In this document: positions 19,226 to 64,000 of the stretch, piece by piece | Layout of the letters: each line of letters begins with the position of its first letter | Position numbering within the stretch: the first letter of the stretch is position 1 | DNA from: Candidatus Omnitrophota bacterium | GTDB lineage: Bacteria > Hinthialibacterota > Hinthialibacteria > Hinthialibacterales > Hinthialibacteraceae | DNA: 64,000 bases | NCBI GenBank assembly: GCA_040755155.1 | Contig: JBFMBP010000032.1 | Span: 26,828 to 90,827, forward strand | Direction of reading: 5' to 3' | Program-made: the position numbers and the translations under genes | Notes under the pieces: generated by a model | Told to the model about the DNA's origin: nothing | The model's database searches: none | Seen by the model: only the letters and a program-made list of their open reading frames with translations

Positions 19226-19310
19226 GATTCTTCTCCTTCGCATTCATTGTCGTTCGTTGATTATTCCCAAACCGAAATTCTCCTCTACCCTACGGCAAGA
19301 AGCGTTCTCT

Positions 19311-21676: not shown

Positions 21677-21685
21677 GAGATTCTC

Positions 21686-27931: not shown

Positions 27932-28870
27932 TTATCTCCGGGCGTTATTCTCAACCTGAGAATGAATGGCGGGGATATCCTGAATTCTTCCCTTTTTTTC
28001 CAGGATGCATTTTTCCGCCTCTTCGCGCTCTATTCCGCAATAATGCATGACTAACGCCGTTTTCAATCGTCCATTGGCTTTTCTAACCAGCTCATCCGCT
28101 TCTTCATATGATAAATCCGTCAGAGAGGCGACGATTCGGCGCGAGCGGTCTTCCAACTTGCGGTTGGTGGCTGTAAGGTCCACCATCAAGTTTTGATAGA
28201 CCTTTCCAATTCGAATCATGGCCGTCGTCGTAATCATGTTCAATACCAATTTCGTCGCCGTCGCCGCTTTCATCCGCGTCGAGCCGGTAACTACTTCAGG
28301 CCCAACGGTCAGGGTGATGACGGCGTCCGCTTCCGGGACGGAATCCTGGTTGGGATTGCAAGTGATAAAGACGGTTTTCGCGCCTCGCGCATGAGCTTCA
28401 TGCAGCGCGCCGACGACGAAAGGCGTAGTGCTGGAAGCCGCAATACCCGCCACTACATCTAAGAAAGCGACGTTTCGTTGGCGCATCTCCTCCGCGCCAT
28501 GTTCGGGATAATCCTCCGCTCTTTCCACCGCCCGCCGCAAGGCCTCCCAACCCCCCGCAATGACTCCCTGCACCATCTCCGGCGGCGACGAAAACGTGGG
28601 AGGGCATTCGGCGGCGTCCAAAACGCCTAACCGTCCGCTGGTTCCGGCGCCTACGTAGATCAAGCGTCCCTTATGGCGAAACGCTTCTACGGTCCATTCC
28701 ACCGCTTTTTCGATATTTGCAATTTGATCGTCTACCGCGCGGAAAGCGTTGTAATCTTCCGAGTGGATCAACTCCAAAATCTCCCGCGTGGAGAGGCGGT
28801 CGATATTCATGGAATGGGGATTCCGCTGCTCCGTAAGCAGGGAGGCCATCTTTTGCGAATCGGGGGTCAT
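27932..28870 (-). CDS. murQ: N-acetylmuramic acid 6-phosphate etherase
   Basis: 312 aa. LLTEQRNPHSMNIDRLST.. then a SIS domain with YVGAGTSGRLGVLDAAECPPTF. Its start overlaps the rng stop (ATGA at 28867-28870). Confidence 0.9.
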   Translation of the reverse strand: MTPDSQKMASLLTEQRNPHSMNIDRLSTREILELIHSEDYNAFRAVDDQIANIEKAVEWTVEAFRHKGRLIYVGAGTSGRLGVLDAAECPPTFSSPPEMVQGVIAGGWEALRRAVERAEDYPEHGAEEMRQRNVAFLDVVAGIAASSTTPFVVGALHEAHARGAKTVFITCNPNQDSVPEADAVITLTVGPEVVTGSTRMKAATATKLVLNMITTTAMIRIGKVYQNLMVDLTATNRKLEDRSRRIVASLTDLSYEEADELVRKANGRLKTALVMHYCGIEREEAEKCILEKKGRIQDIPAIHSQVENNARR

Positions 28871-30378: not shown

Positions 30379-30761
30379 ATTATGAGCATCTCAATCATTC
30401 GCCAAAGGATCGAAAGGATTTTTTATTAAAGTTCAAACTTAGGATTTTTCTTTTAAGTTATTATATATGAATTTATTATTAAATCATTCGCCGGAAAGAA
30501 AAAAAACCGAAAAAAAAGAAAAAAGAAAACGATAGAGCAAACCATCGCCACCCCATCGCCTCTCGTCTCCCTCATTATTTTATCACAACGCCGTCCTTAC
30601 GCCTAAGTTAATTTAAAAGCCGCTTTTATTTCGACGGGGCGGCAAGGGCAAAGTTGTTTTTGCCTTTGAATGAAGCAGAAATAAATCAAGGACGGAAAAA
30701 GTTAATCCACCATTTAGTCAAATACAGATAAGACCTTAACCTTGCTTCTCGCCACCCGCTG

Positions 30762-35978: not shown

Positions 35979-38900
35979 TCATCGTTCAATGAACGAATGC
36001 TCAATGTGCGCTAATGTTTTCAATTCATTCTCGAACTCGCCAAGGAACCGTTCGATCGTTTCGCGCCGGTGAATTTTCCTGTTGTATCCAACATGGAAAA
36101 TAAGGCTGTTATGAAGCGTCATGCCGTCCATTTCCAATAAATGGCGGCGCTCCAATTCCGGGGCGATAGAGGCGGCGTCGAATTCTTCGGCGAGAGTGAA
36201 AACGCCGTTATTTTGAAATAAACCATCCACTCGGCCCATATAATTGAACAAAATATCGGGAGGAGGGAAGAAGCAAATTTCTTTTTCCAACGTTTCCGGC
36301 GTGAGATATTTCAGAACGCCATATCCGATCCCCTTATCGGGAATGGATTGCAGCATCTTCTGGATAAAAATAAGTTGTTCTTCGATATCTTTCTTGATAG
36401 GCAAATCCAGCAAGACGGGATAATGGCTGGTAAACCAACCCACTGTCCGGCTGATATCGAGACCTTTTTCAATCTCTTCCCGTCCATGGCCCGTAAGCGC
36501 AATCCTAAAGCGTTTTCCTGGGCGCCAACGGTTTAAGGCGCGGGCTAAAGCCGTCAACAATATAGCGATCGCGTCCGCGTTTTGGTTGAGACTGGCGGTT
36601 TGTTGCAACCGATCCGCATCATCCAGCGAGAGTTCCAGGCGCATCGATTTCACGTCGCCATAACGATTCTCGCTCTCTGGAAAATCGCGAGGAATCGAGA
36701 CCGCATCCGCCGAATCCACTTCCATCCAGTAAGATTTTTGCGCGAGTAGATCGGTGCGGACGCTATATTGGCGCAGAGCTTCCGACCATTGTTGATAGGA
36801 AGCCGTTTTAACAGGTAGAACCGGAGCAACTCCGTTCATCGCTTGTTTCAAGCTATCCGTCAGGTCTTCGAGGAGAAAACGCCAGGAAACGGCGTCCACG
36901 GCCAGATGATGAACTGTCAGCAAGAGATAATCATTCGTTTTCAATCGATAGAGGACGGATTTCATCAAGGGGCCGGTTTTCAAATCGAATCCATCCTGCA
37001 GGCATGCCGCATGGCGGATCATGGCTTGGGCGCCGTCGTTCTCGCGGCGGAAATCCATGACTGAAAATTGGATGGGAAGCGGGTCGCCGGCCATTTTCTG
37101 AATTACGCCGGAGGGCGTGAAACGGTAGCGCATTCGCAACGCATCGTGATGATTTTGGATCGCTTGCAGGGCGGTTCGCAGCGCCTCTTCCGGCAGACGA
37201 TCTTTCGCCCACAGCCAAACAGTATGATTGAAATGATGGAGGTTGGTAGAGTGTTCCTCGAAGAACCAACGTTGTATGGGAGTCAGTTCAACGATGCCCG
37301 CCGCGGTCTCATGAACGGCGGAGCGTTGGTTATGATTCAGTTTTTTGCATAGCCCCGCGATGGTTTTCCATTCGAACAAATCCCGTAAGGAAAGACGAAT
37401 GCCCGCCTTATGCAGACGGCTGGCAACCTGAATGGCTTTGATGGAATCGCCGCCTAGATCGAAAAAGGAATCGTGAACGCCTACTTTATCCTTTCCTAGC
37501 GCTTCTTGCCAGACTCTGGCGATTTCGATTTCCATTTTCGTTTTCGGAGGAACATAATTGTCGCCGCCGCTTTTCGATTGCGGCGAAGGCAATGATTTTT
37601 TATCGATTTTTCGATTGGGCGTCAGAGGCAATTCGTCCAAGCGAACGATATATTTAGGAACCATGTAAAAGGGCAAGACGCTGAATAAATGGCGGCGCAG
37701 TTCCAAGGAATCGCATTCGTTTCCGGCGGAGAAGTAAGCCGCCAATTCCTGGGTTCCATCTTTTCCCGCCAACGCTATAACCGTTGTTTGTTGCACGCCG
37801 GGATAGGCGCGCAGGCGATTTTCGATTTCCCCAAGTTCGATGCGGCAGCCGTGAATTTTCATTTGATCGTCTTCGCGGCCTAGAAATTCGATGCTTCCGT
37901 CCTCCAGCCAGCGGCCGATATCGCCGGTGCGGTAGAGCCGACCGTCTTCCTGGAAAGGGCTGGGGATGAATTTCTCATCCGTCTGTTCCGGGCGATTCAA
38001 ATAACCGCGCGCCAAACCTGCGCCTGCTAGGCAAATCTCTCCCGGCGCGCCGATGGGAAGCGGTTGGAGCGCGCGATCCAGAATACGGATGCGGGTGTTG
38101 ACTATCGGTTTGCCGATGGGAATGGCGCCGGGAAACGAATCGCCCGGCTTGATTTCCTGGTAGGCGGCGCACACCGTGGCTTCCGTCGGACCGTAGGCGT
38201 TGAAATAACGCAGGTTTTTTGCGTAATGGAGCGCGTCTTCCGCATAAGCCGCCTCGCCCGCCGTAATCATGACGCGCAAGCCGGGGAAATCCGCCTGCTC
38301 CAAAGCGCGAAGATAGGAGGGGGGAAATGTAACCACGGTCGCGCCATGACGCATCATATAAGCTCGCAGCGCATGTCCATCGCGGATGGTCTCTTCGCTC
38401 GCCAAGATCAAAGCGGCGCCCGATAGCAAGGCCATAAATATTTCGGAAAGGGAAGCGTCGAAGGAACAAGAGGCGAATTGCAGAACGCGGTCTTGAGGCG
38501 TTACGCCGAAGCCGCGAATCTGCTCGAGGATCATATTGACAAAGCCGCGATGTTCCACCATCACGCCTTTGGGCGTTCCCGTCGAGCCGGATGTATAGAT
38601 TACGTAAGCGAGATGGCGGCTGGCGCAGAATTTTGAAGGATTCTCGGATGGTCCATCGGCGATGGTTTGGATATTCAATGACAATCCGGGAAGAATGGCT
38701 TCGATTCTCTTGGTTGAGGCGGCGTCCGCAAGCGCAACCCGGCAACCGCAGTCTTGCAGAATGAATTGGATTCGCGCTTCGGGATAGGCGGGATCGATGG
38801 GAGTATAGGCGCCGCCCGCCTTCATGGCGCCCAACAGCGCTGCGATCGCCCAATCGCTTCGTTCCAGAAAGACTCCGATGCGGTCGTCGGGTTGAATGGA

Positions 38901-40457
38901 GTAATGTTGGCGCAAATAATGGGCGATGCGGTTAGCGCGTTCGTTCAATTCGCGATAAGTGAGACGGATTTCCTGAAAGAATACTGCAACATGATCCGGC
39001 GTTTTTTCTGCCTGTTCTTCCCAGAGATCAATCAGCGTCTTTTCTTCGGAGATGGGAACCGTGGGGCTGTTAAAATCATAAAGAATTCGCCGTTTTTCCG
39101 TCTCCGCGAGAATGCCCAGTAGTTTCAGAGGAATGCCGCCGCCGCAAATAACGCCACTGGCGATAGCGCGAAGATGTCCCGCCATGCGCTCAACCTGACG
39201 GCGCGAATAAGCGTTTCCATTGTAATTGAATTTGATTTCTATTTCCGCGCCGGGATGAACCAGAAGGCCGAAATTGTAATGAACTTGTTCGAACGTCCGG
39301 ATGCCTTCCACTTTGAAGCCCAGCCCGGAGTCCTCCGTTATTTCCTGCAGTTTGGAATCGATCGGATAGTTTTCGAAAACTAATAGATGATCAAGCAGTC
39401 CATGCTTGAGGGGCGATTCGGCTTGAATTTCGGCGAAGGGAAAGAAATCGTAAGGAGCGCTTTCCGTCGAAGCGATTTGGATTTGCTTCATCAAATCCAT
39501 GAAAGAAAGATCGTCATGCAATCGGATGCGGACGGGGATCGTATTGATGAACAATCCCACCAATCGCTCGACGCCGTTAACGTCCGCTGGACGTCCAGAA
39601 GCCACGGCTCCGAAGACGACGTCGTCCGCCCCGTTGTAACGGCTAAGCAAAACACCCCAGAGGCATTGCATCGCCGTGTTCAGCGTCGCGCCGTTCTGCG
39701 CCGCCAACCGGTTCAAGGCGGCGCTGGTTTCGGCGTCCAGGCGGAAATCGTATTCTTCAACGGCGTAGCCTTCCTTCCGTTTGGCGGCGTTCGCTCCTAA
39801 TGGAGAGGCGAGAGATTCGTAACCGGATAAATAATCCCGCCAATAGGCGCGCGCCGCTTCCCGATCCCGCGATTCAATCCAATCCAGATATTCGCCACAG
39901 GATACCGGTTCCAGCAGATGGGGAGGCCGGTTTTCTTTCAACGCTTGGTAAATTTCCAAAAATTCCGCTTGCAGAATGCCGCCGGACCAGCCGTCGATCA
40001 AAATATGCGGATGGCTCCAGATCATTTCGTAGAGAGAATCGCCAAGTTGAAGTATGGATATGCGCATAAGGACGTCGTGGCGCAGATCGAAGCCCCGGTT
40101 TCTATCTTCTTCTTTGTAATTTTTTAAAAAATCCTGCTGCGCCTTCGCATCGAGCGAACGTAAGTCTTTATAAGCGAATTCGGCGGATCTCTCTTTGAGA
40201 ATGAGATGGAGAGGTTGGGATGCGCCTTCGTGAACGAAGGCCGATCGCAGAATTTCATGCCGCTCCGACAAGAATTTCCAGGCGGCTTCGCAACGCTTCG
40301 CCTCGAAATCGCCGCGGAGGCGATAGGCGGTCTGTTCGAAATAAGCCCAGGATTTGGGTTCGTAGAGAGCGTGAAAAAGCATCCCCTCCTGCATGGGCAG
40401 CAGGGGATAAATGTTTTGCAGATTTTTTTTGGATACGGCGCCCGGTTGATTACTCAT
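35979..40457 (-). CDS. NRPS, terminal module C-A-T-E (no thioesterase or reductase)
   Basis: 1492 aa. DCL-type C domain (LLPMQEGMLFH..; SHPHILIDGW at 39985-40020). A domain (SGSTGTPKG at 38565-38610; ..NRKIDKKSLP at 37590-37635). T domain ([10 protein letters not shown] at 37428-37460). E domain (HHLAVDAVSW at 36881-36915, TGHGREE, VGWFTS), then stop. The ATG overlaps the upstream stop (ATGAGTAA, 40450-40457). Confidence 0.92.
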   Translation of the reverse strand: MSNQPGAVSKKNLQNIYPLLPMQEGMLFHALYEPKSWAYFEQTAYRLRGDFEAKRCEAAWKFLSERHEILRSAFVHEGASQPLHLILKERSAEFAYKDLRSLDAKAQQDFLKNYKEEDRNRGFDLRHDVLMRISILQLGDSLYEMIWSHPHILIDGWSGGILQAEFLEIYQALKENRPPHLLEPVSCGEYLDWIESRDREAARAYWRDYLSGYESLASPLGANAAKRKEGYAVEEYDFRLDAETSAALNRLAAQNGATLNTAMQCLWGVLLSRYNGADDVVFGAVASGRPADVNGVERLVGLFINTIPVRIRLHDDLSFMDLMKQIQIASTESAPYDFFPFAEIQAESPLKHGLLDHLLVFENYPIDSKLQEITEDSGLGFKVEGIRTFEQVHYNFGLLVHPGAEIEIKFNYNGNAYSRRQVERMAGHLRAIASGVICGGGIPLKLLGILAETEKRRILYDFNSPTVPISEEKTLIDLWEEQAEKTPDHVAVFFQEIRLTYRELNERANRIAHYLRQHYSIQPDDRIGVFLERSDWAIAALLGAMKAGGAYTPIDPAYPEARIQFILQDCGCRVALADAASTKRIEAILPGLSLNIQTIADGPSENPSKFCASRHLAYVIYTSGSTGTPKGVMVEHRGFVNMILEQIRGFGVTPQDRVLQFASCSFDASLSEIFMALLSGAALILASEETIRDGHALRAYMMRHGATVVTFPPSYLRALEQADFPGLRVMITAGEAAYAEDALHYAKNLRYFNAYGPTEATVCAAYQEIKPGDSFPGAIPIGKPIVNTRIRILDRALQPLPIGAPGEICLAGAGLARGYLNRPEQTDEKFIPSPFQEDGRLYRTGDIGRWLEDGSIEFLGREDDQMKIHGCRIELGEIENRLRAYPGVQQTTVIALAGKDGTQELAAYFSAGNECDSLELRRHLFSVLPFYMVPKYIVRLDELPLTPNRKIDKKSLPSPQSKSGGDNYVPPKTKMEIEIARVWQEALGKDKVGVHDSFFDLGGDSIKAIQVASRLHKAGIRLSLRDLFEWKTIAGLCKKLNHNQRSAVHETAAGIVELTPIQRWFFEEHSTNLHHFNHTVWLWAKDRLPEEALRTALQAIQNHHDALRMRYRFTPSGVIQKMAGDPLPIQFSVMDFRRENDGAQAMIRHAACLQDGFDLKTGPLMKSVLYRLKTNDYLLLTVHHLAVDAVSWRFLLEDLTDSLKQAMNGVAPVLPVKTASYQQWSEALRQYSVRTDLLAQKSYWMEVDSADAVSIPRDFPESENRYGDVKSMRLELSLDDADRLQQTASLNQNADAIAILLTALARALNRWRPGKRFRIALTGHGREEIEKGLDISRTVGWFTSHYPVLLDLPIKKDIEEQLIFIQKMLQSIPDKGIGYGVLKYLTPETLEKEICFFPPPDILFNYMGRVDGLFQNNGVFTLAEEFDAASIAPELERRHLLEMDGMTLHNSLIFHVGYNRKIHRRETIERFLGEFENELKTLAHIEHSFIER
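35982..37320 (-). other. Terminal epimerization (E) domain of the last NRPS module (approximate bounds)
   Basis: [11 protein letters not shown].., HHFNH, HHLAVDAVSW, TGHGREE, VGWFTS, FNYMG. It runs to the last residue of the protein. Confidence 0.8.
37590..39080 (-). other. Adenylation domain A4 (approximate bounds), Tyr-like specificity code
   Basis: Manual alignment to GrsA-PheA gives D-A-S-T-I-A-A-V-C-K (FDASLSE, VVTFPPS, MITAGEA, FNAYGPTEATVCA). This is closest to published Tyr-type codes DAST[VI]AAVCK. Confidence 0.6.
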
Positions 40458-43400
40458 CTTGGAAGATGTCCTCGAATTCGTTCAAATCCATCTTGACGCG
40501 CGAAACGTCGCTGGGAGTGATCTCCGCCGTTTGCCGGGATTGGCAATAAGCGACGATTTCATTCAATTCGGCGGCGTAATGTTCGAGAAACTGTTCGATC
40601 GTTTGGCGGCGGTGAATGGCGCGGTTGAACAGAATCGTTATTTCCAATCGATCGTTTTGGATCATACATCCGACATCCAGCAAATGGCTTCGCTCAAGAT
40701 TCTTGCCCGCTACGCTTCCGCATGGTTCTTGGGAGAGAGCGAAAGTTCCGTCTTTTTGCTTTTCGTCGATGCGTCCCAGATAATTGAAGCCGATTTCTCC
40801 ATGGATAAGGAGAGAAGCGCCGCCCAGACGTTCGGGTGGCGTCAGGTAGCGCAACGCGCCATAACCGATGCCTTTATTGGGAATGCGCCGCAGGGTTTCC
40901 TTGATTTCTTTAATTTGGCCGCCAATGTCGTTTTTCCCGCGCAGTTCCAATACGACGGGATATAGGCTGGTAAACCACCCGGCGGTGTGGCTGACATCTA
41001 CGCCTGGGACGGCGGTTTCCCGGCCATGCCCTTCCAGCATAATCAGGCAGCGGTTTCCGCCATGCCAACGCTTCAAGGCGCGGGCCAACGCTGTCAGCAA
41101 AAGGTCGGAGGTTTCCGTTTTGAAGGCATGGTTGGTTTTGGCGAGCCAATCGTTCGTTGCGGCGGAAGATAGCGTCAAACCGACCGTCTCCGAATCGCCG
41201 TAACGGTTAACGCTGATGGGAAAATCTACGGGAATAGGCGCAGTTTCGGCGGCAGCGGTTTTGGTCCAATAGTCCAGTTCCCGCAGCAGGCTTGGCGTTT
41301 CGCTGAATTTCCGCAGCGCTTCGGACCATTGCTTGAACGAGTCCGTCTTCATGGGTAAGCGGATTTCTCGCCCGGCGAGCGTCTGCCGGTAAGCCGTAGC
41401 CAGGTCTTCGAACAACACGCCCCAAGAGACGATGTCCACGACAAGATGATGAATGACGATCAACAGCCGGTCGCCGTCTTTCAAACGGCATAAGGCCGTT
41501 TTCATCAGAGGGCCTTTTTCTAGATTGAGGCTGCGCTGCATCGTCTCGGCGCAAGCGAGAAAATCTCTTTTACCGTCCTTGGCTTTTCGCATGTCGATGG
41601 TTTCGAAGGATAATGGGACGGGAAGCGGGGCGTATTCCTGAACGATCTTGTCATGTTGAATATGGAAACGCATCCGCAGGGCGTCATGATGGTTTTGCAG
41701 CGCTTCCAAAGCCAATTTCAAAGCGGATTCGTCGAAACGATCTTTGGCTTTCAGCAAAGCGGAATGGTTGAAATGATGCAAATCTTTCCGCCTTTCTTCG
41801 AAGAACCAATGTTGAATAGGCGTCAAAGCAACCGCGCCCGCCGCCGCTTCCTGCATGACTTCTTTCTTCGCGGCTCTTGTTTTGCCCGCCAGAGCGGCGA
41901 TCGTCGGCGATTGGAACAAATCCTTCATCTCGAGGGCGACGCCCGCCTGGCGCAAGCGGCTGACAGTTTGAATGGCTTTGATGGAATCGCCGCCGATTTC
42001 GAAAAACCGCTCGTGAATCCCCACGGTTTTTCGGCCTAAGACGTCCTGCCAGATTTTGGCCATAACCGCTTCGGTCTCGTTGCGCGGCGCGGCGTATTCG
42101 GTTTTGGAGCCAAGAGCGAAGGCTTCGGGCGCGGGGAGCGCTTTGCGGTCCACTTTGCCGCTCGGCGACAGCGGCATGGCGTCCAGCTGCGCCCAGCGGG
42201 TGGGAATCATATAATCGGGAAGCGTCTTTGCGAGATAGTCTTTCAACGCGGCGGCGTCCAGTACTTCGCTGGCGGCGATATAGCCGATCAGTTCCTTCGC
42301 TCCGTCCGCCGCATCGCGGACGACGACGGCGGCGCCGTTGATTTTAGGATGTTGCAGCAAATGGTGTTCGATCTCGCCGCATTCGATGCGGAATCCGCGC
42401 ACTTTCACCTGATCGTCGCGGCGTCCCATATAAACCACTTCGCCGCCGGGCAGCCAATAGCCCAGATCGCCCGTGAGATAGAGGCGGCGGCCTGGCTTAA
42501 AGGGATGGGAGATGAAAGCAGACGCCGTCAGGTCGTCGCGGCGGAGATAGCCCCGCGCCAACCCCGCGCCGCCGATGCCGATTTCGCCGGGCACGCCGAT
42601 AGGCGCGGGATTCTTATACTCGTCCAATATAAGAATTTCGAAATTGGATATCGGCTTTCCGATAGGAATGGCGCCGTTGTATATCCGCAGGGCATCCACT
42701 TCGTGCGCCGTGGCGCATACGGTCGATTCCGTCGGTCCATATGCGTTGACGAAGCGCAAGCATTGGGCGAAAGCGAGAGCGTCGTCCACCCGCGCCGCCT
42801 CACCCGCGGAGACCAATAGTCTCAAGGAAGGTAAATCCTCCGCTTTCAACTCGGCGGCGTAGGAGGGCGGCAGCGTGGCGATGGTTACTTGTTTTTCATT
42901 TATATAATCGGCGAAGCGGCGGTAATCGTCGACGCGCTCGCGTCCGGCGACGACCAGACAGGCGCCTTGCAACAACGCCATCAGCATCTCCCAAACGGAA
43001 GCGTCGAACGAAGACGGAGCGAATTGAAGAACGCGATCCTGCGCCGTTACGCCGAGTCCGCTCTTATGCCAGGCGGCCAGGTTGAGCGCACCCGAATGCT
43101 CCAGCATGACGCCTTTGGGCCGCCCTGTGGAGCCTGATGTGTATATGACGTACGCCAGGTTGTCCGCCTTGGCTGCGGAGATGGGATTGGCGGGCGAACC
43201 GTCTTGCAGCGCGCAGATATCAGCGGCGTTCTTGAGCGTTTCGCCAAACATTTTCCGATGCTTCTCGTCCGTCAAAACGACGGAGCATTGGGAATCGGAA
43301 AGCATATAGTCGATGCGGTCGCGGGGATAACTCGGATCAATGGGAAGATAGGCGCCGCCCGCTTTTACGATGCCCAGAAAAACGATGGGCGTCCATTCGC

Positions 43401-57591: not shown

Positions 57592-57638
57592 ATTCCAACT
57601 TCCCGAAACTTCGCATTTTCAATAGGTGAACTATCATG

Positions 57639-57670
57639 CAGGGTAGGCTAAAAGCGAAGTACAGCCTTCC
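57639..57670 (+). repeat. REP-like hairpin, family B (diverged copy)
   Basis: gcagggtaggctaaaagcgaagtacagccttc, in the spacer between the two megasynthase genes. Confidence 0.55.
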
Positions 57671-57713
57671 TTGTCAATATCTAATAACTACTCCTGAGAA
57701 AAAAATTAAAACT

Positions 57714-57799
57714 GTAGGATGGATCATGTCGTTTGACCCATCAATTACTCCATTCTTTAAATATCGATGGGTCAAAAAACGCGACCCATCCTACTTTTC
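57714..57799. repeat. Inverted pair of family-C REP-like units forming an ~85-nt hairpin
   Basis: gtaggatggatcatgtcgtttgacccatc (57714-57742) matches the reverse complement of gatgggtcaaaaaacgcgacccatcctac (57771-57799) at 23 of 29 positions. The right unit is near-identical to 16398-16430. Confidence 0.7.
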
Positions 57800-57812
57800 T
57801 GCCTGTCCCGCT

Positions 57813-60800
57813 TCAAACAAGCAATTCGTCGATTTCTTTCAATACCGATTGCGTTTCCGTTTTGGATTCATCCGGCGCCGGTTCGCTCTCTTCCAATATG
57901 ACGACTTCGTCCAATAAATATCGGGAAATCTTATCTAATGTTGGATAATCGTAAAGCAACGACGCTGGCAGCGAGGCGCCGATCTCCTTGCTTAAGCGGT
58001 TGCGCATATCCACTGTCGTCAGCGAGTCGAATCCCTGGTTCACCAGCGGTTGGTCGGGCGCGATACGCTCCGACTCGTTGTATCCCAATACGCTTTGCGC
58101 GATGCGTTGCAGCCGCGCCGCCAGCAGGCCGCGCCTTTGCGCGGGCAAGACTTCGCGCAGTTCGTTGGCGATATCGCGGCGGTCGCTTGGGGCTTCGTCC
58201 GCCGCCGATTTCGCCGTTTCGCCGATAAGGTTGGCGAATAGCCCAGCGGAAGCATCAAGGCCGTGGCTGGCGCCGTAGGCGTTCCAATCCACGTCGAAAG
58301 CGCAGGCTTGAATCATGTTTTCTTGCAAGATAGTTTTCATCAGCCTCATGCCGGTTTCCGGTTGGATATAGCGGATGCCCTGCGCGAAAAAGCGGTCGAC
58401 GGCCATATCCGCCGCCATGCCCGCATCGGCCCACGGCCCCCAGTTGACGCTGACCGCCGCAAGGCCGAGCTGGCGGCGGTAATGCGCTAATCCGTCCATA
58501 AAGGCGTTAGCCGCCGCGTAATTGCTTTGGCCTAGATTGCCGATGATGGCGGCGACGGATGAGAAGAGCGCGAAGAAATCCAGATCGTCGTTCTTGGTTG
58601 CTTGATGCAGATTCCAGGCGCCGCGAACTTTCGGCGCCATGACTTTTTGGAAGCGCTCCCACGTTTGTTCCGCCATCATGCCGTCATCGAGCAGTCCCGC
58701 CGCGTGGATGATTCCCTTGAGGGGCGGCATAGCGCTGCGAATATGGTTCAGGATGCGCTCCACATCGGCGCCGCAAGCCATATCGCCCTGCAAAACGGCG
58801 ATTTCCGCGCCACCTTCGCGCAGTTCGCGCATAACAGCTTCGGCGGCGGGTTTGGGAGCGCTGCGTCCCGTCAACGCGAGATGGTGGGCGCCTTGCTCCG
58901 CCAACCAGCGAACCATCAGCAGGCCGAGAGCGCCAAGGCCTCCGGTGATGAGGTAAGTTCCCTCGCTTTGAATCAGGCCGCGCCGTTGAATGTTCTCGCG
59001 ACGAATTTCATCTTGGCGAGATAGAACAATCTTGCCGATATGCTTTGCCTGCGCCATATAGCGATAGGCGTCGATGGCGTTCGCGAGGGGAAAAACGGTA
59101 ATGGGCAGCGGCTTCAAATCGCCCTTGGCGAATTTCGCCATCAGCTCATGGAACATGCGCCCGATCAACGCCGGATTTTGGCGCGACACCGCCGCCAAGT
59201 CGAAGGGATAATAGGCGAAGGTAGGATTCAACTCGCGAACTTGGCTTGCATCCCAAATGCCGATTTTGCCCATCTCCAAAAAGCGGCCCAGATTCGCCAG
59301 TACGGAAAAACTCTTGGCGATGAATTCGCCCGATAGGGAATTGAGAACGGCATCGACGCCGCGCCCGCCGGTGATTCGCTTAATCTCGTCCGCAAAATCC
59401 AGCGTCCGCGAATTTAAGACATGATGGACGCCGAGGGATCGCAAGTATTCCCTCTTTTCGGGGGAACCCGCCGTAGCGAAAATCTCCGCTCCCGCATCCA
59501 GCGCTAGTTGAACGGCGGCCATGCCCACGCCGCCAGCGCCCGCGTGAATAAGAATGCGCTCCCCGCGCTTCAATGCGCCCAATTCATGCAATGCATAGTA
59601 AGCCGTCAGAAAAGTGGCGGGGATAGTAACGGCCTCTTCCAATGTCATGCCGTCCGGTTTTTTGAAAACGAAAGCGCGGTTCAGCGTGATGTAACTGCCA
59701 ATGCAGCCGGGAGCGGCCATGGCGATTACGGGATCGCCAACCTTCAAATCGCCGACGTTCTCGCCGATGGCGGCGACGGTTCCGGCGGATTCGTAGCCCA
59801 TAAGTCCCGCATCGCCGGGATACTGTCCCAGCGCGTTGAGAACGTCGCGGAAATTCAATCCGGCGGCATGAATCCGCACTTCCACTTCATCCGCATCGGG
59901 AACGCGGCGCTCGCGGATTTTGAAGGATAACTCGTCCAGCGTTTTGCGCGCGCCGACGTCCAGATAATAGGCTTGCGTCTCCGAGACGGCGGGATAAGCT
60001 AGCGTCTTGTCATACTCTTGGCGCGAGGTTTTCGCTTTCCGCCTCGCCAATCGCGCCGCGAAGCGGCGTCCACCCCGGCGCAAGGCGGTTTGATCCTCGC
60101 CGTTGGACTTATTCATCAATTCCAACAAGGCAAGCGCGCTAGCCGCCGAGGCGTCGTTATCGATATCGAGCAGGCCGCCCCACATTTCCGGATGCTCCAG
60201 CGCCAGCGCTCTTCCCAATCCCCAAAGCGCCGCTGATGCCGGAGGCGTCAAGCGGTCTTCCGGCGCCACTGCCTGGCAGCGGTTAGTAACGAGCCAAAGT
60301 TGGGCCTTATCCGTTTTGTTCAATTTTTCTAAAGCATGGACGATATGAAGTACGCCGCCGCACAGGCGTTTCTCTTCTTCCTCCAGCGCCTGCGTATCTT
60401 GAGAGGGCATGGCGTCCACGCCCCAGAGAAAGAGAATCTTCGTCATAGCCGGGGAAGAGTCCTTCGCCCAATGTTCGAACAAACGCATAAAATCTTCAGC
60501 GTTGGCGGGATCGATCGTAGAAATATTGTCTCCCGTTTTTTCGAATTGCTTCCCCGCAACTACTTTGATATATGCTTCCCCTTTTTTCTCGATCTCCTTT
60601 TCCAAAGCGTCGCATACGCCTTGCGAATCGGCGAAGAGAATATAACGCAATTTCTCTTGGGCTGCGGAAAACTCCTCCGCTTTCATCTCGCGCCATTCGA
60701 TTTCGTATATCGAATTCTTGTCGTCTTCGCGCAGTTCGCGGTACAGCGTTTGGCGATCCGTTAGTTTCAAAAGGAAGTCTTTAATTTCGAGCGCCTGTTC

Positions 60801-63800
60801 GCCTTGGCTGTTGAAGACGGCGATTTCGCACTTGATGATGCTTTCCTGCAATTTCACGCGCGTATAGCAATACAATTCTCCCGCCAGCGAGCGATGAACT
60901 TGAACTTGGCTCATGTGCAGGGGAATTAAAATATTATCGCCTTCCAGCATCGCCGTCGCTGACGCTTTACAGGCGGGCAGCACCGTTTGCAGCATAGAAT
61001 CGATCAATCCGGGATGAACGGCCGCGTCGTCGATGGCTTTGGCCGGTTGCAGACGGCAAAAGGCTTCGTCCGTTCCTTGTCGGATGGCGTGGATGCATTG
61101 GAAATTAGGGCCAGTGCTGTAGCCGACGCTTTCGATATAGGAATAGAATTCCTCCGATTCCATCGCGCCGCTGGAAAATTTCTCTTCCAACTCTCGCCAA
61201 GAAGAACCGGACGTCGTCATGTCTGACTGTTGATCGCTCTTGCGGGCGATGTTGCCGGAGCAATGAGTAATCCAGGAAGCGGCGTCGTCCTCGGCGGATC
61301 GGCTGACGATACGGAAAGAGGGCTTGGCGCTTTTGCTATTTTCTATAATGGTCTGCACCCAGCGTGATTCGCCTTCGTTCACCACCAATGGCGCGGTGAA
61401 CTCCACCTCTTCAATAACGCCCATTCCATCGCCGAATACGCGGCGGCAGGCGGAAAGCGCCATCGAAACGTGGGCGGCGGCGGGAGAAATAATCTTGCCG
61501 TATATTTTATGCTCTTTCAAAAAAGCAGGCCGCGTTTCGGTGAAAAGATTTTGAAAGAGAATAATGCCGCCATCGAGGCAAGGCGAGGCAATCTTCTGGC
61601 CCAGATAAGGATGCGCGTTCCGGCCAAGAGAAATCTCTCCTCCCGATTGGCCGTTCTGAACCGGACTCATGTAGTAACTTTTTCGTTGGAAGGGATAGGC
61701 CGGCAGCGCGATTTTTGTTCGGGAATAAGACGCGTCGAAGCCTTCCCAATCGATTTCCGCGCCGCGAACGTAAATTTCCGCCAAGCTGGCGAGCAGGAAA
61801 TTCCAATCGTCCTCCCCTTTTTTCAATGAGGCTAGAAACGCTTTGTTTTCCTGGGAAATGCTGCGCCGCGCCAGTCCCGTCAGCGTCGGCGCCGCGCCCA
61901 TTTCCAGAAATATGTCCGCATTTTCCGCCGCCATCGTCTCCATCGCCGCCAGAAAACGCACCGGCCGCCGTATCTGGTTGGCCCAATAAGAAGCGCTGGC
62001 CAAATCGCCGCTCGCCGCTTTTTTCCCCGTAACTGTCGAGACGATCAATAATCGCGGCGCCTCATAGTTCACGCTGGCCGCGATGTGTTCGAATTTGTTC
62101 AGGATCGGATCCATTAGAGGAGAATGGAAAGCGTGGGATACGTTGAGTTCTTGCGATGAAATCCCTTTGCTTTTCAACTTGGCGAGGATTTCCGCCACGG
62201 CTTCCCGCCGTCCGGAAATTACCACGCTGCCCGGCGAGTTGATCGCCGCGAGGGAAGCGTCCGTTTTCCGGGCGTCAACCAAAGGTTGAACCTCATCTTC
62301 ATTCGCGAAGACGGCGGCCATGCTTCCCCCCGCTGGCAGCGACTGCATCAGTTGTCCCCGCGCCGCTACGAGTTTGAGAGCGTCTGGCAGGCTGACGATT
62401 CCCGCCGCGCAGGCGGCGGCGTATTCGCCGATGCTATGCCCCGCCGCGATGTCCGCCGTTGCGCCCCACGATGTCCATAAGCGGTAGAGCGCGTATTCAA
62501 TGGCGAAGATCGCCGGTTGGGCGTATTGCGTCTGCGTCAGAACGGCGTCGTCCGCCTTTTCGCCGTATATCGAATCGATGAGGGATGCGTTCAGATATTC
62601 GCGCAGGATGGCGTCGCATTCCTCCATCGCTTGGCGGAAAACCGGCTGCGCATCCCATAATCCACGTCCCATGCCCACGTATTGCGAGCCTTGTCCCGTA
62701 AAGAGAAACGCTAAGCGCGGACGCCCTCCCCTTGCAGACGTAAGGGATTTCGTTTTTTCGCCTTGAGAAAATTTACGAAGCGCGTCTTTAAAATCCTCGC
62801 TGGCAGCGCCCGCCGCCGCCAATCGGTTTTCGAAATGGCTGCGCCCGGCGCCGGCGGTATAGCAAGCATCGGCGATCGGCGTATTGGGATTTTGCTCGAA
62901 GTAATCCGCATATCGCGCCGCCAGTTGCTTCAACGCCACTTCGTTTTTGGCGGAAAGGGGAAGGATATGAACCGGACGTTCCGCCGATATCGCCGCAGCG
63001 GCGGGCGTTGGTTTTTCGCCTGTATCCTCTCCAACTTCGCCTGCAATTCCGCTGGGAACCATCGTCCGCTTGACGATAGGCGCTTCTTCAACGATGGCGT
63101 GGGCGTTCGTGCCGCTGAAGCCGAACGAACTAACGCCCGCCCGGCGCGGCGTCTCGCTGCGCGGCCACGGCGTCAGCGCGGTGGGAACGAAAACCGGCAA
63201 TTGATCCCAAGGAATATAGGGGCTGGGATTTTTCAAATGAGGATGAGGCGGAATTTTTTCATGCCGCAGAGATTGAATGACTTTAATCACGCCGGATATC
63301 CCCGCCGCCGCTTCCAAATGCCCGATATTCGCCTTTACGGAGCCAAGGAGAATGGGATTCTCCTTGGTATGCCCATTCTTCATGACTCTGGCGATGGATT
63401 CCACTTCGATAGGATCGCCGAGGGGCGTGCCGGTACCGTGCGCTTCCATATACCCAATGTCGGCGGGTTGTAGTCCGGCGTTCTCCAAAGCGCGGCGAAT
63501 TACTTTTTCCTGCGCCAGCCCGTTGGGCGCCGTGAGTCCATTGCTTTTGCCGTCTTGGTTGACCGCTGTTCCGCGCAGGACTGCCAATATCCGGTTATTG
63601 TCTTTGATGGCGTCGCTCAAGCGCTTTAAGAGCAGCGCGCCGCAGCCCTCGCCCCGGCCATAACCGTCGGCGGAAGCGTCAAAAGTTTTGCAGCGGCCAT
63701 CGGGGGATATCGTGCCCAGTTTCGTCGAGCATATATGGAAGATGGGCGAGAGGATAAGATTAACCCCTGCTGCTAAGGCCATATCCGATTCTTGATTGCG

Positions 63801-64000
63801 CAAACTATGGCAGGCGAGATGCAGCGCTGCCAGCGATGAGGAACAAGCCGTATCCACAGCCATGCACGGCCCTTCAAAGCCGAAAGTATAAGAGATGCGC
63901 CCGGCGGCGGGTGCGAAACAGGTTCCCGTCAGCGCGTAGCCGTCGATGATGCCGTTATGGCCGGAATGGCGGTGCGACTGCGTATAATCGTCGCTAGAGA
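57813..64000 (-). CDS. Type I PKS module KS-AT-DH-ER-KR-ACP, 5' part outside the window
   Basis: The frame is open up to base 64000 (..[55 protein letters not shown]), so the M at 63863 is internal. KS Cys at ~63840-63860. AT GHSIGE at 62421-62450 with HAFH (malonyl-type). DH HPYLGQKIASP at 61601-61625. ER LNFRDVL and HAGAGGVGMAAVQLA at 59521-59560. KR TGGLGALG at 58921-58960 plus SNYAAAN. ACP GFDSLT at 58005-58040. Short C-terminal docking tail. Confidence 0.9.
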   Translation of the reverse strand, partial: SSDDYTQSHRHSGHNGIIDGYALTGTCFAPAAGRISYTFGFEGPCMAVDTACSSSLAALHLACHSLRNQESDMALAAGVNLILSPIFHICSTKLGTISPDGRCKTFDASADGYGRGEGCGALLLKRLSDAIKDNNRILAVLRGTAVNQDGKSNGLTAPNGLAQEKVIRRALENAGLQPADIGYMEAHGTGTPLGDPIEVESIARVMKNGHTKENPILLGSVKANIGHLEAAAGISGVIKVIQSLRHEKIPPHPHLKNPSPYIPWDQLPVFVPTALTPWPRSETPRRAGVSSFGFSGTNAHAIVEEAPIVKRTMVPSGIAGEVGEDTGEKPTPAAAAISAERPVHILPLSAKNEVALKQLAARYADYFEQNPNTPIADACYTAGAGRSHFENRLAAAGAASEDFKDALRKFSQGEKTKSLTSARGGRPRLAFLFTGQGSQYVGMGRGLWDAQPVFRQAMEECDAILREYLNASLIDSIYGEKADDAVLTQTQYAQPAIFAIEYALYRLWTSWGATADIAAGHSIGEYAAACAAGIVSLPDALKLVAARGQLMQSLPAGGSMAAVFANEDEVQPLVDARKTDASLAAINSPGSVVISGRREAVAEILAKLKSKGISSQELNVSHAFHSPLMDPILNKFEHIAASVNYEAPRLLIVSTVTGKKAASGDLASASYWANQIRRPVRFLAAMETMAAENADIFLEMGAAPTLTGLARRSISQENKAFLASLKKGEDDWNFLLASLAEIYVRGAEIDWEGFDASYSRTKIALPAYPFQRKSYYMSPVQNGQSGGEISLGRNAHPYLGQKIASPCLDGGIILFQNLFTETRPAFLKEHKIYGKIISPAAAHVSMALSACRRVFGDGMGVIEEVEFTAPLVVNEGESRWVQTIIENSKSAKPSFRIVSRSAEDDAASWITHCSGNIARKSDQQSDMTTSGSSWRELEEKFSSGAMESEEFYSYIESVGYSTGPNFQCIHAIRQGTDEAFCRLQPAKAIDDAAVHPGLIDSMLQTVLPACKASATAMLEGDNILIPLHMSQVQVHRSLAGELYCYTRVKLQESIIKCEIAVFNSQGEQALEIKDFLLKLTDRQTLYRELREDDKNSIYEIEWREMKAEEFSAAQEKLRYILFADSQGVCDALEKEIEKKGEAYIKVVAGKQFEKTGDNISTIDPANAEDFMRLFEHWAKDSSPAMTKILFLWGVDAMPSQDTQALEEEEKRLCGGVLHIVHALEKLNKTDKAQLWLVTNRCQAVAPEDRLTPPASAALWGLGRALALEHPEMWGGLLDIDNDASAASALALLELMNKSNGEDQTALRRGGRRFAARLARRKAKTSRQEYDKTLAYPAVSETQAYYLDVGARKTLDELSFKIRERRVPDADEVEVRIHAAGLNFRDVLNALGQYPGDAGLMGYESAGTVAAIGENVGDLKVGDPVIAMAAPGCIGSYITLNRAFVFKKPDGMTLEEAVTIPATFLTAYYALHELGALKRGERILIHAGAGGVGMAAVQLALDAGAEIFATAGSPEKREYLRSLGVHHVLNSRTLDFADEIKRITGGRGVDAVLNSLSGEFIAKSFSVLANLGRFLEMGKIGIWDASQVRELNPTFAYYPFDLAAVSRQNPALIGRMFHELMAKFAKGDLKPLPITVFPLANAIDAYRYMAQAKHIGKIVLSRQDEIRRENIQRRGLIQSEGTYLITGGLGALGLLMVRWLAEQGAHHLALTGRSAPKPAAEAVMRELREGGAEIAVLQGDMACGADVERILNHIRSAMPPLKGIIHAAGLLDDGMMAEQTWERFQKVMAPKVRGAWNLHQATKNDDLDFFALFSSVAAIIGNLGQSNYAAANAFMDGLAHYRRQLGLAAVSVNWGPWADAGMAADMAVDRFFAQGIRYIQPETGMRLMKTILQENMIQACAFDVDWNAYGASHGLDASAGLFANLIGETAKSAADEAPSDRRDIANELREVLPAQRRGLLAARLQRIAQSVLGYNESERIAPDQPLVNQGFDSLTTVDMRNRLSKEIGASLPASLLYDYPTLDKISRYLLDEVVILEESEPAPDESKTETQSVLKEIDELLV

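What the first reader, a model, noticed from the sequence alone, without database searches (positions are those of the whole stretch)
35979..64000. Large cis-AT PKS/NRPS assembly line predicted to make a beta-amino-acyl tetrapeptide with three D-residues
Three collinear minus-strand genes, separated by a 221-bp spacer and then an 8-bp start/stop overlap, encode KS-AT-DH-ER-KR-ACP | KS-AT-ACP-AMT-C-A-T-E-C-A-T-C-A-T-E | C-A-T-E. Read literally, an incoming acyl chain gains one fully reduced malonyl unit and then one more malonyl unit whose beta-keto group is transaminated. The chain is then extended by D-Thr, X, D-Phe and D-Tyr. My manual codes are DFWNIGMVHK, DVRHIALLAK, DAWTVAAVCK and DASTIAAVCK. 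The KS-AT-ACP-AMT-C logic is known from iturin/mycosubtilin (ItuA/MycA) and microcystin/nodularin (McyE/NdaF) synthetases. I cannot assign the short four-residue peptide part, with three epimerases and a terminal E domain, to any named pathway. The loading end, with possibly more modules and tailoring genes, lies beyond base 64000.
Basis: partly seen in the sequence, partly recalled or inferred. Interest (0 to 1): 0.8.

Follow-up and report, generated by a model that had tools for sequence, protein, structure and literature searches.

The report
Orphan PKS–NRPS cluster with exported D-peptidase
This is an intact gene cluster for a small hybrid fatty-acid/peptide natural product that carries a beta-amino acid and several mirror-image (D) amino acids; it belongs to a widespread but unstudied family that lacks the usual product-release enzyme and always carries a secreted D-specific peptidase instead.

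Summary
Catalytic motifs are intact. The aminotransferase domain matches the mycosubtilin MycA AMT crystal structure (418 bits).

New findings:
1. The first PKS is 2216 aa and runs about 155 aa past base 64000. All six related clusters where that side was visible have an AT-less KS-ACP gene there.
2. No thioesterase, reductase or terminal C domain was found in the window, or in the parts I could read of the seven related clusters.
3. The next gene (33830-35740) encodes a signal-peptide-bearing S12 serine hydrolase. Its closest relatives are alkaline D-peptidase, R61 DD-peptidase and D-amino-acid amidase. It forms a discrete clade that sits next to the C-A-T-E gene wherever I could see that flank.
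4. The cluster belongs to a conserved orphan family, found in Magnetospirillum molischianum, Shumkonia mesophila and several MAGs, with conserved codes Thr–DVRHxALLx–Phe/Tyr–Tyr.

Predicted core: 3-aminoacyl–D-Thr–X–D-Phe–D-Tyr. Chain length, X, the release step and the hydrolase's role are unresolved. I found no characterised counterpart, but MIBiG could not be searched. Moderately interesting.

The parts
57813..64000 (-). PKS1, one fully reducing module KS-AT-DH-ER-KR-ACP. It is truncated by the window edge (full protein P0001 = 2216 aa). Approximate domains: KS 63234-64000, AT 61758-62708, DH 60750-61613, ER 59022-59894, KR 58425-58961, ACP 57915-58115.
   Evidence: Pfam. Motifs DTACSSS, HGTGT, NIGH, GHSIG/HAFH, HxxxGxxxxP, IHAGAGGVG, KR LDD + YAAAN. 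Open frame to the window edge. Full length.
40450..57591 (-). HYB, a 5713-aa hybrid: KS-AT-ACP-AMT-C-A(Thr)-T-E-C(DCL)-A(X)-T-C(LCL)-A(Phe)-T-E.
   Evidence: Pfam and motif scan. 56% identity end to end with the orthologue in contig CAZTDD010000003.1.
52795..54123 (-). AMT domain: PLP-dependent beta-ketoacyl-ACP aminotransferase, with PLP lysine in [13 protein letters not shown].
   Evidence: 418 bits, E = 3.6e-124, full-length match to the mycosubtilin synthase MycA AMT crystal structures 6kfm/6kfu. The best glutamate-1-semialdehyde aminomutase scores 181 bits. Sequence.
54496..57492 (-). KS (56362-57492), malonyl-type AT (54946-55896) and ACP (54496-54693) of the beta-amino-forming module.
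48292..52731 (-). NRPS module 1: C (HHIAVDG; 51451-52731), A with code DFWNIGMVHK = Thr (49933-51393), T (49657-49854), E (48292-49614; [31 protein letters not shown]).
45007..48219 (-). NRPS module 2: DCL-type C ([15 protein letters not shown]), A with code DVRHIALLAK (substrate unknown), T. No E domain.
   Evidence: No literature hit for the code.
40453..44979 (-). NRPS module 3: LCL-type C ([15 protein letters not shown]), A with code DAWTVAAVCK = Phe, T, E (HHLVVDI, GHGRE, FNYLG). COM-donor-like C-terminal tail [22 protein letters not shown].
35979..40457 (-). NRPS3, the terminal module: C(DCL; MQEGMLFH, PHILIDG)-A(DASTIAAVCK = Tyr)-T-E. The N-terminus looks like a COM acceptor. The C-terminus has no COM donor tail and no TE.
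   Evidence: Pfam, motifs, codes. 50% identity to the CAZTDD orthologue.
33830..35740 (-). Exported S12 (beta-lactamase-fold) D-stereospecific peptidase-like serine hydrolase, 636 aa. It has a Sec-type signal peptide, motifs SVSK, YTN and HGG, and C-terminal beta-sandwich (Fn3-like) domain(s). It is a conserved member of the cluster family.
   Evidence: Pfam PF00144, signal peptide and motifs, RBS AAGGAG upstream of the ATG at 35740. PDB sequence hits: alkaline D-peptidase 6e-31, R61 4e-26. Foldseek on the AF2 model. Discrete clade co-located with the synthetase genes. 31 of 33 homologues have signal-like N-termini and none has a C-terminal TM segment.

Best explanation
The region is the greater part of an intact, co-linear cis-AT PKS-NRPS biosynthetic gene cluster.

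Shown:
- The domain order, the intact catalytic motifs and a MycA-type aminotransferase.
- A DCL/LCL pattern that matches the E domains.
- COM-type tails linking HYB to NRPS3.
- No release domain.
- An adjacent exported S12 hydrolase that is conserved with the synthetases in related clusters from very different bacteria.

Inferred mechanism:
1. An acyl starter is delivered by an upstream AT-less KS-ACP protein. This protein is seen in related clusters and lies beyond base 64000 here.
2. PKS1 extends the starter by one fully reduced C2 unit.
3. The HYB PKS module adds malonate, and the beta-keto group is transaminated on the ACP to give a 3-aminoacyl thioester.
4. Four NRPS modules add Thr (epimerised), an unknown residue X (code DVRHIALLAK, possibly an acidic amino acid), Phe (epimerised) and Tyr (epimerised).
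5. The result is 3-aminoacyl-D-Thr-X-D-Phe-D-Tyr on the last T domain.

Release is not by a cis TE. I take it to be hydrolysis by a factor not visible here. After export, the S12 enzyme acts on the D-aromatic C-terminus of the peptide. Whether that step is trimming and maturation or self-protection is undecided.
For: - Anatomy.
- Specificity codes.
- AMT is MycA-like.
- HYB to NRPS3 hand-over: 8-bp overlap, E followed by a DCL-type C, and COM-like tails.
- NRPS3 is terminal: no COM donor tail.
- No TE, MbtH or GxSxG-type hydrolase motif anywhere in the window.
- Family conservation: KS0-ACP, PKS1, HYB, C-A-T-E and S12 (plus AsnB-like) in CAZTDD010000003.1, CAYQOX010000007.1, JGI 3300048855, an ENA contig, M. 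molischianum and Shumkonia mesophila.
- A-domain codes are conserved across members.
- S12 is exported and D-peptidase-like.
- The S12 clade is discrete: about 78 clusters at 36-52% identity (40-52% for all but the weakest), then a drop to 26-34%. Nine contig lengths are shared with the PKS1 homologue list.
- Cluster boundary: the radical-SAM/RNase G pair downstream is syntenic with a sister MAG that has no NRPS there.
Against: - No product has been observed.
- The starter and chain length are unknown. The KS0-ACP gene cannot be seen in this window, and PKS1 could act iteratively.
- If the beta-keto group made by KS0 is not reduced, the acyl part would carry a keto group.
- X is unassigned.
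- No release enzyme is identified, so 'hydrolytic release' is an assumption.
- The AsnB-like gene present in four related clusters is absent from bases 1-64000.
- The number of E domains varies among family members, so the D-configuration pattern is not a family constant.
- MIBiG and antiSMASH could not be run, so a characterised relative may exist.
Confidence: 0.6

Rival explanations
1. The S12 protein is the missing release enzyme. On this view it is a SurE-like PBP-type thioesterase that takes the D-Tyr thioester from the last T domain and closes a head-to-tail macrolactam onto the free beta-amine, giving a cyclic iturin-like product.
For: The line ends in T-E with no TE. A stand-alone beta-lactamase-fold gene lies immediately downstream and is conserved. 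The minimal cluster in Shumkonia has no other hydrolase. PBP-type TEs need a C-terminal D-residue (PMC11735501). Motif III is HxG, as in SurE (PMC12903863).
Against: The window protein has a Sec-type signal peptide, as do 31 of 33 family members, so the enzyme is outside the cytoplasm and the NRPS is inside. The C-terminal domain is Fn3-like rather than lipocalin-like. The best sequence and structure matches are alkaline D-peptidase, R61 and D-amino-acid amidase. No entry named SurE or Ulm16 (6ksu/6ksv/8fek) is among the 60 sequence hits or the top 50 structural hits.
Confidence: 0.08
2. The S12 protein is a self-resistance D-stereospecific peptidase of the BogQ/TriF type. It degrades the D-residue-containing product outside the producer cell.
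For: It is an exported S12 enzyme inside a BGC for a peptide rich in D-residues. D-stereospecific peptidases are statistically associated with such BGCs and cleave their cognate peptides (PMC9231227; PMC12903863).
Against: The clade is tied exclusively to this BGC family, even in the six-gene minimal cluster that has no transporter. That pattern fits a biosynthetic role at least as well as a resistance role.
Confidence: 0.25
3. The S12 protein is a ClbP-like prodrug-activating peptidase. It removes the (3-aminoacyl)-D-Thr head group after export and liberates a small X-D-Phe-D-Tyr peptide.
For: It is an exported S12 peptidase next to a hybrid PKS-NRPS. A lipid-D-amino acid N-terminus resembles the N-acyl-D-Asn prodrug motif. 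ClbP is a detectable homologue (E = 2e-9; Foldseek rank 24).
Against: There are no C-terminal transmembrane helices as in ClbP. There is no starter-C/Asn module. Similarity to ClbP is much weaker than to alkaline D-peptidase and R61. The E domain after the Thr module is missing in at least one family member (L157).
Confidence: 0.1
4. The gene order is not the order of action. On this view C-A-T-E is the starter module, making an acyl-D-Tyr that feeds KS0, and HYB is the last enzyme.
For: In M. molischianum and in JGI contig L158 the C-A-T-E gene is followed (after S12 and AsnB) by KS0 and PKS1, so the gene order is circularly permuted.
Against: HYB and C-A-T-E overlap by 8 bp in the window, M. 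molischianum and Shumkonia (14 bp in CAZTDD). The C domain of NRPS3 has the DCL-type motif expected after the E domain of HYB. HYB ends in a COM-donor-like tail, NRPS3 starts with an acceptor-like sequence, and NRPS3 has no donor tail. In the best-resolved example, L156, KS0 starts at residue 5 with no N-terminal docking region. This order would still leave no release domain.
Confidence: 0.04
5. The cluster is decayed or silent, with no product.
For: There is no release domain. The AsnB-like gene of related clusters is missing from the visible part.
Against: About 28 kb of uninterrupted ORFs with all checked catalytic motifs intact. The orthologous clusters are equally TE-less and are conserved across phyla, which argues for selection.
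Confidence: 0.03

Closest known systems
Mycosubtilin/iturin synthetase subunit A (MycA/ItuA)
   Same: A PKS-type condensation is followed by an on-line PLP aminotransferase and then a C domain, so a beta-aminoacyl chain starts the peptide. The AMT domain matches the MycA AMT crystal structure over its full length (418 bits). The product is rich in D-residues.
   Different: From my own knowledge, MycA starts with an acyl-ligase/ACP and uses a trans acyltransferase, and the iturin lines make heptapeptides and end in a TE that cyclises onto the beta-amine. Here the AT is in cis. A full reducing PKS module, and in relatives a KS-ACP protein, precede the AMT module. Only four residues are added, there is no TE, and an exported S12 hydrolase is part of the cluster.
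Microcystin/nodularin McyE/NdaF and cyanobacterial beta-amino lipopeptide lines (puwainaphycin, microginin)
   Same: KS-AT-ACP-AMT-C logic in a cis-AT hybrid (puwainaphycin: PMC4219810, listed). Microginins are likewise linear beta-aminoacyl tetra- to hexapeptides ending in Tyr (own knowledge). The R239/H278 pocket of module 2 recalls the acidic, iso-linked residues of McyB2/McyE (from memory, not tested).
   Different: Those lines start from FAAL or phenyl starters, carry methyl-transferase or oxygenase domains, and end in TE domains (own knowledge). No direct sequence comparison could be made here.
Surugamide-type TE-less NRPSs with the trans-acting PBP-type thioesterase SurE (also PenA, Ulm16)
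   Same: The NRPS ends in T-E without a TE, and a stand-alone beta-lactamase-fold protein with SxxK/YxN/HxG motifs is encoded alongside (PMC11735501).
   Different: The hydrolase here carries a signal peptide and an Fn3-like rather than a lipocalin-like C-terminal domain. It is far closer to alkaline D-peptidase, R61 and D-amino-acid amidase than to any entry named SurE or Ulm16. The family occurs in Gram-negative bacteria and uncultured lineages.
Exported S12 D-stereospecific peptidases acting on non-ribosomal peptides (BogQ, TriF, Lip3/Lip7, ClbP)
   Same: Sec signal peptide, S12 beta-lactamase fold, an extra C-terminal beta-rich domain (as in Lip3/7), and a D-residue-containing lipopeptide as the likely substrate (PMC12903863; PMC9231227).
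   Different: Motif III is HGG (R61-like), not KGG or KTG. There are no ClbP-type TM helices. Sequence similarity to Lip3 and ClbP is weak (E about 1e-10 to 1e-9). The role is untested.

Membership tests
MycA/ItuA-type beta-amino-installing PKS-NRPS junction | AMT domain homologous to MycA AMT, with the PLP lysine, placed between an ACP and a C domain | tested here: met
   418 bits, full-length match to 6kfm/6kfu. GK motif present. Domain order.
MycA/ItuA-type beta-amino-installing PKS-NRPS junction | Condensing KS with Cys-His-His upstream of the AMT | tested here: met
   DTACSSS, HGTGT and NIGH motifs.
MycA/ItuA-type beta-amino-installing PKS-NRPS junction | Fatty-acyl ligase (AL/FAAL)-ACP loading | not testable with these tools
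   The loading end lies beyond base 64000. In six related clusters the upstream gene is an AT-less KS-ACP, not an acyl ligase.
MycA/ItuA-type beta-amino-installing PKS-NRPS junction | Terminal TE that cyclises onto the beta-amine | tested here: not met
   NRPS3 ends in an E domain. No TE was found in the window or in related clusters.
SurE-like PBP-type thioesterase systems | NRPS without a cis TE, last module ending in E, stand-alone beta-lactamase-fold gene in the cluster | tested here: met
SurE-like PBP-type thioesterase systems | Cytoplasmic enzyme able to reach the T-domain thioester | tested here: not met
   Sec-type signal peptide in the window protein and in 31 of 33 homologues.
SurE-like PBP-type thioesterase systems | C-terminal lipocalin-like domain, and closest relatives among PBP-type TEs | tested here: not met
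   An fn3 hit in the orthologue. Foldseek top 50 are alkaline D-peptidase, R61, D-amino-acid amidase, ClbP and AmpC, with no entry named SurE or Ulm16.
S12 D-stereospecific peptidases (R61 DD-peptidase / alkaline D-peptidase / D-amino-acid amidase group) | SxxK, YxN and H-x-G motifs in a beta-lactamase fold | tested here: met
   S98/K101, Y218/N220 and H364-G-G are invariant or nearly invariant in 33 sequences. Target-normalised TM-score 0.83-0.88 to 4y7p, 1hvb, 3wwx and 9s7k.
S12 D-stereospecific peptidases (R61 DD-peptidase / alkaline D-peptidase / D-amino-acid amidase group) | Hydrolysis at a D-configured residue | not testable with these tools
   This needs an enzyme assay. It is only circumstantially supported by the predicted D-Phe-D-Tyr terminus.
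ClbP-type prodrug peptidase systems | C-terminal transmembrane helices, and an N-acyl-D-Asn motif made by a starter C-A(Asn)-T-E module | tested here: not met
   No C-terminal hydrophobic segment. The first NRPS module has a Thr code and follows an AMT.
Unnamed conserved BGC family (M. molischianum, Shumkonia mesophila, MAGs) | PKS1 + HYB + C-A-T-E (start/stop overlap with HYB) + exported S12, with A-codes Thr / DVRHxALLx / Phe-or-Tyr / Tyr | tested here: met
   42-59% identity orthologues in the same architecture. Codes.
Unnamed conserved BGC family (M. molischianum, Shumkonia mesophila, MAGs) | AT-less KS-ACP gene upstream of PKS1, and an AsnB-like gene next to S12 | tested here: inconclusive
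   The KS-ACP position is outside the window. No AsnB-like, ABC, Band_7 or PPTase homologue is found in bases 1-64000 by tblastn.

The most novel reading that the evidence does not exclude
The family represents a TE-less assembly-line logic in which maturation happens after export. The dedicated exported DD-peptidase-like S12 enzyme would use the D-Phe-D-Tyr end of the free peptide as an acyl donor, as R61 uses D-Ala-D-Ala, possibly after C-terminal amidation by the AsnB-like enzyme in other members. It would then transfer the acyl group to water, to the peptide's own beta-amine (periplasmic macrocyclisation with loss of D-Tyr), or to another amine. The product would in effect be a lipidated mimic of a peptidoglycan stem peptide.
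Probability: 0.1. Interest if true: 0.8.

Novelty: new variant of a known kind. Interest (0 to 1): 0.5.

Why it matters
If the prediction holds, this family makes a small beta-aminoacyl peptide rich in D-residues by a route that departs from the usual rule that an NRPS line carries its own release domain. It pairs the synthetases with a cluster-specific exported D-peptidase. Because orthologous clusters occur in cultured, sequenced strains (Magnetospirillum/Phaeospirillum molischianum, M. fulvum, Shumkonia mesophila), the product, the release step and the role of the S12 enzyme can be tested directly. The conserved unknown A-domain code DVRHxALLx is also a target for specificity work. In other respects it is one more orphan hybrid BGC, of which there are many.

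Tried and rejected
- Looking up the window's own proteins to extend the contig past base 64000 failed: the look-up of encoding contigs had no record for NRPS3 or P0001. I used orthologous contigs instead.
- The GTDB representative genomes hold no close relative of NRPS3. The best is 50%. For RNase G the best is 79% in an unnamed MAG and then 46% or less, so the source organism stays unassigned.
- Full-text searches for the A2 code and its variants gave nothing.
- Searches for a described counterpart gave no matching cluster: Phaeospirillum plus NRPS/PKS, AMT lipopeptides, and terminal E without a TE. The Collimonas carenaemin locus has an AMT but a different architecture.
- The PDB search with the A2 domain gave only generic A-domain hits and no substrate clue.
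- The scan for MbtH-like and TE/GxSxG motifs in all six frames of the window found nothing.
- tblastn for the AsnB-like, ABC/Band_7 and PPTase genes of related clusters found nothing in the window.
- The Rfam and tRNA scans of the window were empty.
- I rejected KS0 as a KSQ decarboxylating loader, because all five examples keep the active-site Cys.
- The last homology search (AMT-C) returned only short or partial proteins. It showed that AMT-C didomains are common in metagenomes but gave no characterised near neighbour.

Full report
OBSERVATION. The minus strand of the window carries three long ORFs at 57813..>64000, 40450..57591 (5713 aa) and 35979..40457 (1492 aa). The first ORF is open up to the window edge. 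The protein database holds the window's own product as a 2216-aa protein on a 106,142-bp contig (P0001), so about 155 residues lie beyond base 64000: the N-terminal docking region and the first part of the KS.

Pfam scans and a motif scan give this domain order:
- KS-AT-DH-ER-KR-ACP
- KS-AT-ACP-AMT-C-A-T-E-C-A-T-C-A-T-E
- C-A-T-E

All the catalytic signatures I checked are present:
- KS: DTACSSS, HGTGT, NIGH.
- AT: GHSIG...HAFH in both ATs, the malonyl type by established motif rules.
- DH: HxxxGxxxxP.
- ER: NADPH motif.
- KR: LDD and YAAAN.
- Carrier domains: the carrier serines.
- C domains: HHxxxDG, with PHILIDG in the last C, which keeps the second (catalytic) histidine.
- E domains: PIQxWF, HHxxxD, GHGRE, RTVGWFT, FNYLG.
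- AMT: the PLP lysine in TYGKIVGGG.

I re-derived the specificity codes by aligning each A domain to the GrsA-PheA pocket segment.

INTERNAL CONSISTENCY OF THE LINE. The two C domains that follow an E domain start with the MQEGML(Y/F)H motif typical of DCL-type domains. The one C domain that follows a module without an E domain starts with SHAQRRLW, the LCL type. This is the pattern expected if the E domains are functional. HYB ends in [22 protein letters not shown] and NRPS3 starts with [29 protein letters not shown]. These resemble the COM donor and acceptor pairs of E-terminated NRPS subunits (established knowledge). NRPS3 itself ends directly after its E domain with no such tail. Together with the 8-bp overlap, this supports the order PKS1 to HYB to NRPS3, with NRPS3 last.

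THE AMINOTRANSFERASE. The AMT region (HYB residues about 1157-1599) matches the crystal structures of the mycosubtilin synthase MycA AMT domain (6kfm, 6kfu) over its whole length, with 418 bits and E = 3.6e-124. The best glutamate-1-semialdehyde aminomutase scores 181 bits. AMT-C didomains are common in metagenomes: more than 1100 proteins have E <= 1e-60, and JGI labels some of them 'iturin family lipopeptide synthetase A'.

(i) No release domain. NRPS3 ends in E. There is no TE, reductase or terminal C domain. A six-frame motif scan finds no TE-type or MbtH-type sequence in the window.

(ii) The next gene encodes an exported S12 hydrolase. Gene 33830..35740 has an AAGGAG RBS upstream of its ATG and encodes a 636-aa beta-lactamase-fold protein (PF00144).
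- It has a classical Sec signal peptide, MMRKSPWIAVFCSAVLALAGFAIMMPSAVHA|AS.
- Its best solved relatives by sequence are alkaline D-peptidase of Bacillus cereus (4y7p, 6e-31), an S12 D-stereospecific amidohydrolase (3wwx), Streptomyces R61 DD-peptidase (4e-26) and D-amino-acid amidase. ClbP is far weaker (2e-9).
- An AlphaFold model (pLDDT 81, with a high-confidence catalytic domain and first beta-sandwich) gives the same order by Foldseek: 4y7p, R61, D-amino-acid amidase with bound D-Phe, then ClbP at rank 24. No entry named SurE or Ulm16 appears among the top 50.
- SxxK, YxN and HGG are invariant or nearly so in 33 homologues.
- 31 of the 33 have signal-peptide-like N-termini, and none has a ClbP-like C-terminal membrane segment.

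(iii) The cluster's lower boundary. The genes below 33.8 kb (a radical-SAM/DUF2344 protein and RNase G) are housekeeping-like. They are syntenic with a sister MAG (79% RNase G identity) that has no NRPS at that place. The cluster therefore ends with the S12 gene.

A CONSERVED ORPHAN FAMILY. The homologues of PKS1 and of the S12 protein fall on the same contigs; nine contig lengths are shared between the two lists. The S12 homologues form a discrete clade of about 78 sequence clusters at 36-52% identity (40-52% for all but the weakest). After these, similarity drops abruptly to 26-34% with Streptomyces DD-carboxypeptidases. Reading the contexts shows one recurring gene set:
- an AT-less KS-ACP protein of 713-1065 aa, with the active-site Cys intact in all five examined (most also keep HGTGT and NIGH) and no GHSxG;
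- PKS1, about 2200 aa;
- HYB, 5041-5737 aa;
- C-A-T-E, overlapping HYB by 8 bp in three of the four clusters where the junction is visible and by 14 bp in the fourth;
- the exported S12 hydrolase;
- in four of the five contexts where that side is visible, an asparagine-synthetase-like gene.

In Shumkonia mesophila these six genes are flanked by primary-metabolism genes, which gives a minimal cluster with no TE and no transporter. An ABC exporter with a Band_7 protein, or a PPTase, are optional neighbours. In M. molischianum and in one JGI contig the gene order is circularly permuted.

The window's HYB is 56% identical end to end to the CAZTDD orthologue and 47-54% identical to the others. NRPS3 is 42-50% identical to its orthologues. 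The pocket codes are conserved across members: DFWNIGMVH; DVRH(I/L)ALL(A/C); DAWTVAA(V/I)C or DASTIAAVC; DASTIAAVC or DASGIAAVC. The number of E domains varies. The window and CAZTDD have three, while in M. molischianum and Shumkonia HYB ends in a T domain. The window lacks the AsnB-like, ABC, Band_7 and PPTase genes within bases 1-64000. They may lie upstream or be absent.

MECHANISM.

Shown: the domain order, the motif integrity, MycA-type AMT membership, the DCL/LCL pattern, the absence of a release domain, and the exported nature and D-peptidase kinship of the S12 protein together with its conserved linkage to the synthetases.

Inferred from standard assembly-line rules:
1. An acyl starter is condensed by KS0 and handed to PKS1.
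2. PKS1 adds one fully reduced C2 unit.
3. The HYB PKS module adds malonate, and the AMT converts the beta-keto thioester to a 3-aminoacyl thioester.
4. The C domain after the AMT couples this to Thr.
5. The chain then grows by X, Phe and Tyr, with epimerisation at Thr, Phe and Tyr.

Open points:
- The starter and chain length are unknown. KS0 has no AT and no reducing domains. Either a keto group persists five carbons from the amine-bearing carbon, or PKS1 domains act on it, or PKS1 iterates.
- X is unassigned. From memory, Arg239/His278 pockets occur in the acidic, iso-linked residues of microcystin synthetases. This was not tested, and there is no literature hit for the code.
- The release step is unknown.
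- The role of S12 is unknown. Its nearest characterised relatives act at a D-aromatic or D-Ala residue with a small C-terminal leaving group. This fits action on the D-Phe-D-Tyr end of the exported peptide. Exported S12 D-specific peptidases are known to act on non-ribosomal peptides in resistance (BogQ, TriF), prodrug activation (ClbP) and extracellular remodelling (Lip3/Lip7) (PMC9231227; PMC12903863).

COMPARISON WITH KNOWN SYSTEMS. The line works like the iturin/mycosubtilin and cyanobacterial beta-amino lipopeptide synthetases at the PKS-to-NRPS junction, but it is not a member of those pathways. It has a different loading end, a cis AT, an extra reducing module, only four residues and no TE. 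On paper it resembles the surugamide-type arrangement of a TE-less NRPS ending in E with a stand-alone PBP-fold enzyme (PMC11735501). It fails the defining features I could test for that system: cytoplasmic location, a lipocalin-like domain, and kinship to named PBP-type thioesterases.

I found no described counterpart in the literature library. I could not query MIBiG, so this remains the main caveat.

VERDICT. This is a real, intact and correctly read hybrid BGC. The added value of this stage is fourfold: the cluster is one member of a conserved cross-phylum orphan family; no release domain was found in the window or in the readable parts of the related clusters; a clade-specific exported D-peptidase-like hydrolase belongs to the family; and cultured carriers exist for testing. 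I rate it a new variant of a known kind with moderate interest (0.5). The most novel reading not excluded is post-export maturation by DD-transpeptidase-like chemistry, which I put at about 10%.

Noticed in passing
window 21434-21979 (+): A small toxin-antitoxin-like pair. An 80-aa Gp49/RelE-like protein (PF05973, weak) is followed by a 97-aa 'addiction module antidote' protein (PF21716, E = 3e-28).
   Followed up: partly
window 22145-24408 (+): A 194-aa ORF with no family hit overlaps the start of a 560-aa HerA-type ATPase (PF01935; PADLOC HerA models down to 1e-34). This may be a two-gene defence module.
   Followed up: partly
window 1695-12330 (-): An unusual tandem of three MacB-like FtsX permeases (816-843 aa each) with two ABC ATPases and an HlyD-type adaptor. 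It lies about 20 kb from the cluster, and I found no evidence that it exports the product.
   Followed up: no
window 28867-33284 (-); L076 7173-11515: A radical-SAM (Radical_SAM_N2 + DUF2344) gene and an RNase G gene are adjacent here and in the sister MAG (79% RNase G identity). The sister MAG has no NRPS there and carries its 55%-identical version of the cluster on another contig.
   Followed up: partly
L157 HYB residues about 2603-2813; L161 and L162 HYB C-termini: In some family members a C domain with the DCL-type N-terminal motif follows a T domain with no E domain in between. This raises the possibility of dual E/C domains, or of different stereochemistry, within the family.
   Followed up: no
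L158 16567-19205 (-): In one related cluster (JGI 3300048855) a fatty-acid desaturase, a Rieske protein and a reductase sit directly after PKS1. These may be lipid-tail tailoring genes and are not seen in the window.
   Followed up: no
window 14072-14635 (+) and 18632-19243 (-): Two prepilin-type N-terminal methylation-motif proteins (T2SS pseudopilin-like) lie among GFO/IDH/MocA oxidoreductase, DUF2961 and YdjC genes. The source organism could not be placed: the nearest RNase G apart from one unnamed MAG is about 45% identical.
   Followed up: no
window 33830-34200 (S12 residues about 516-636): The window's S12 protein is about 110 residues longer at the C-terminus than most orthologues (520-530 aa). 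The extra part is modelled with low confidence and looks like a second beta-sandwich.
   Followed up: no
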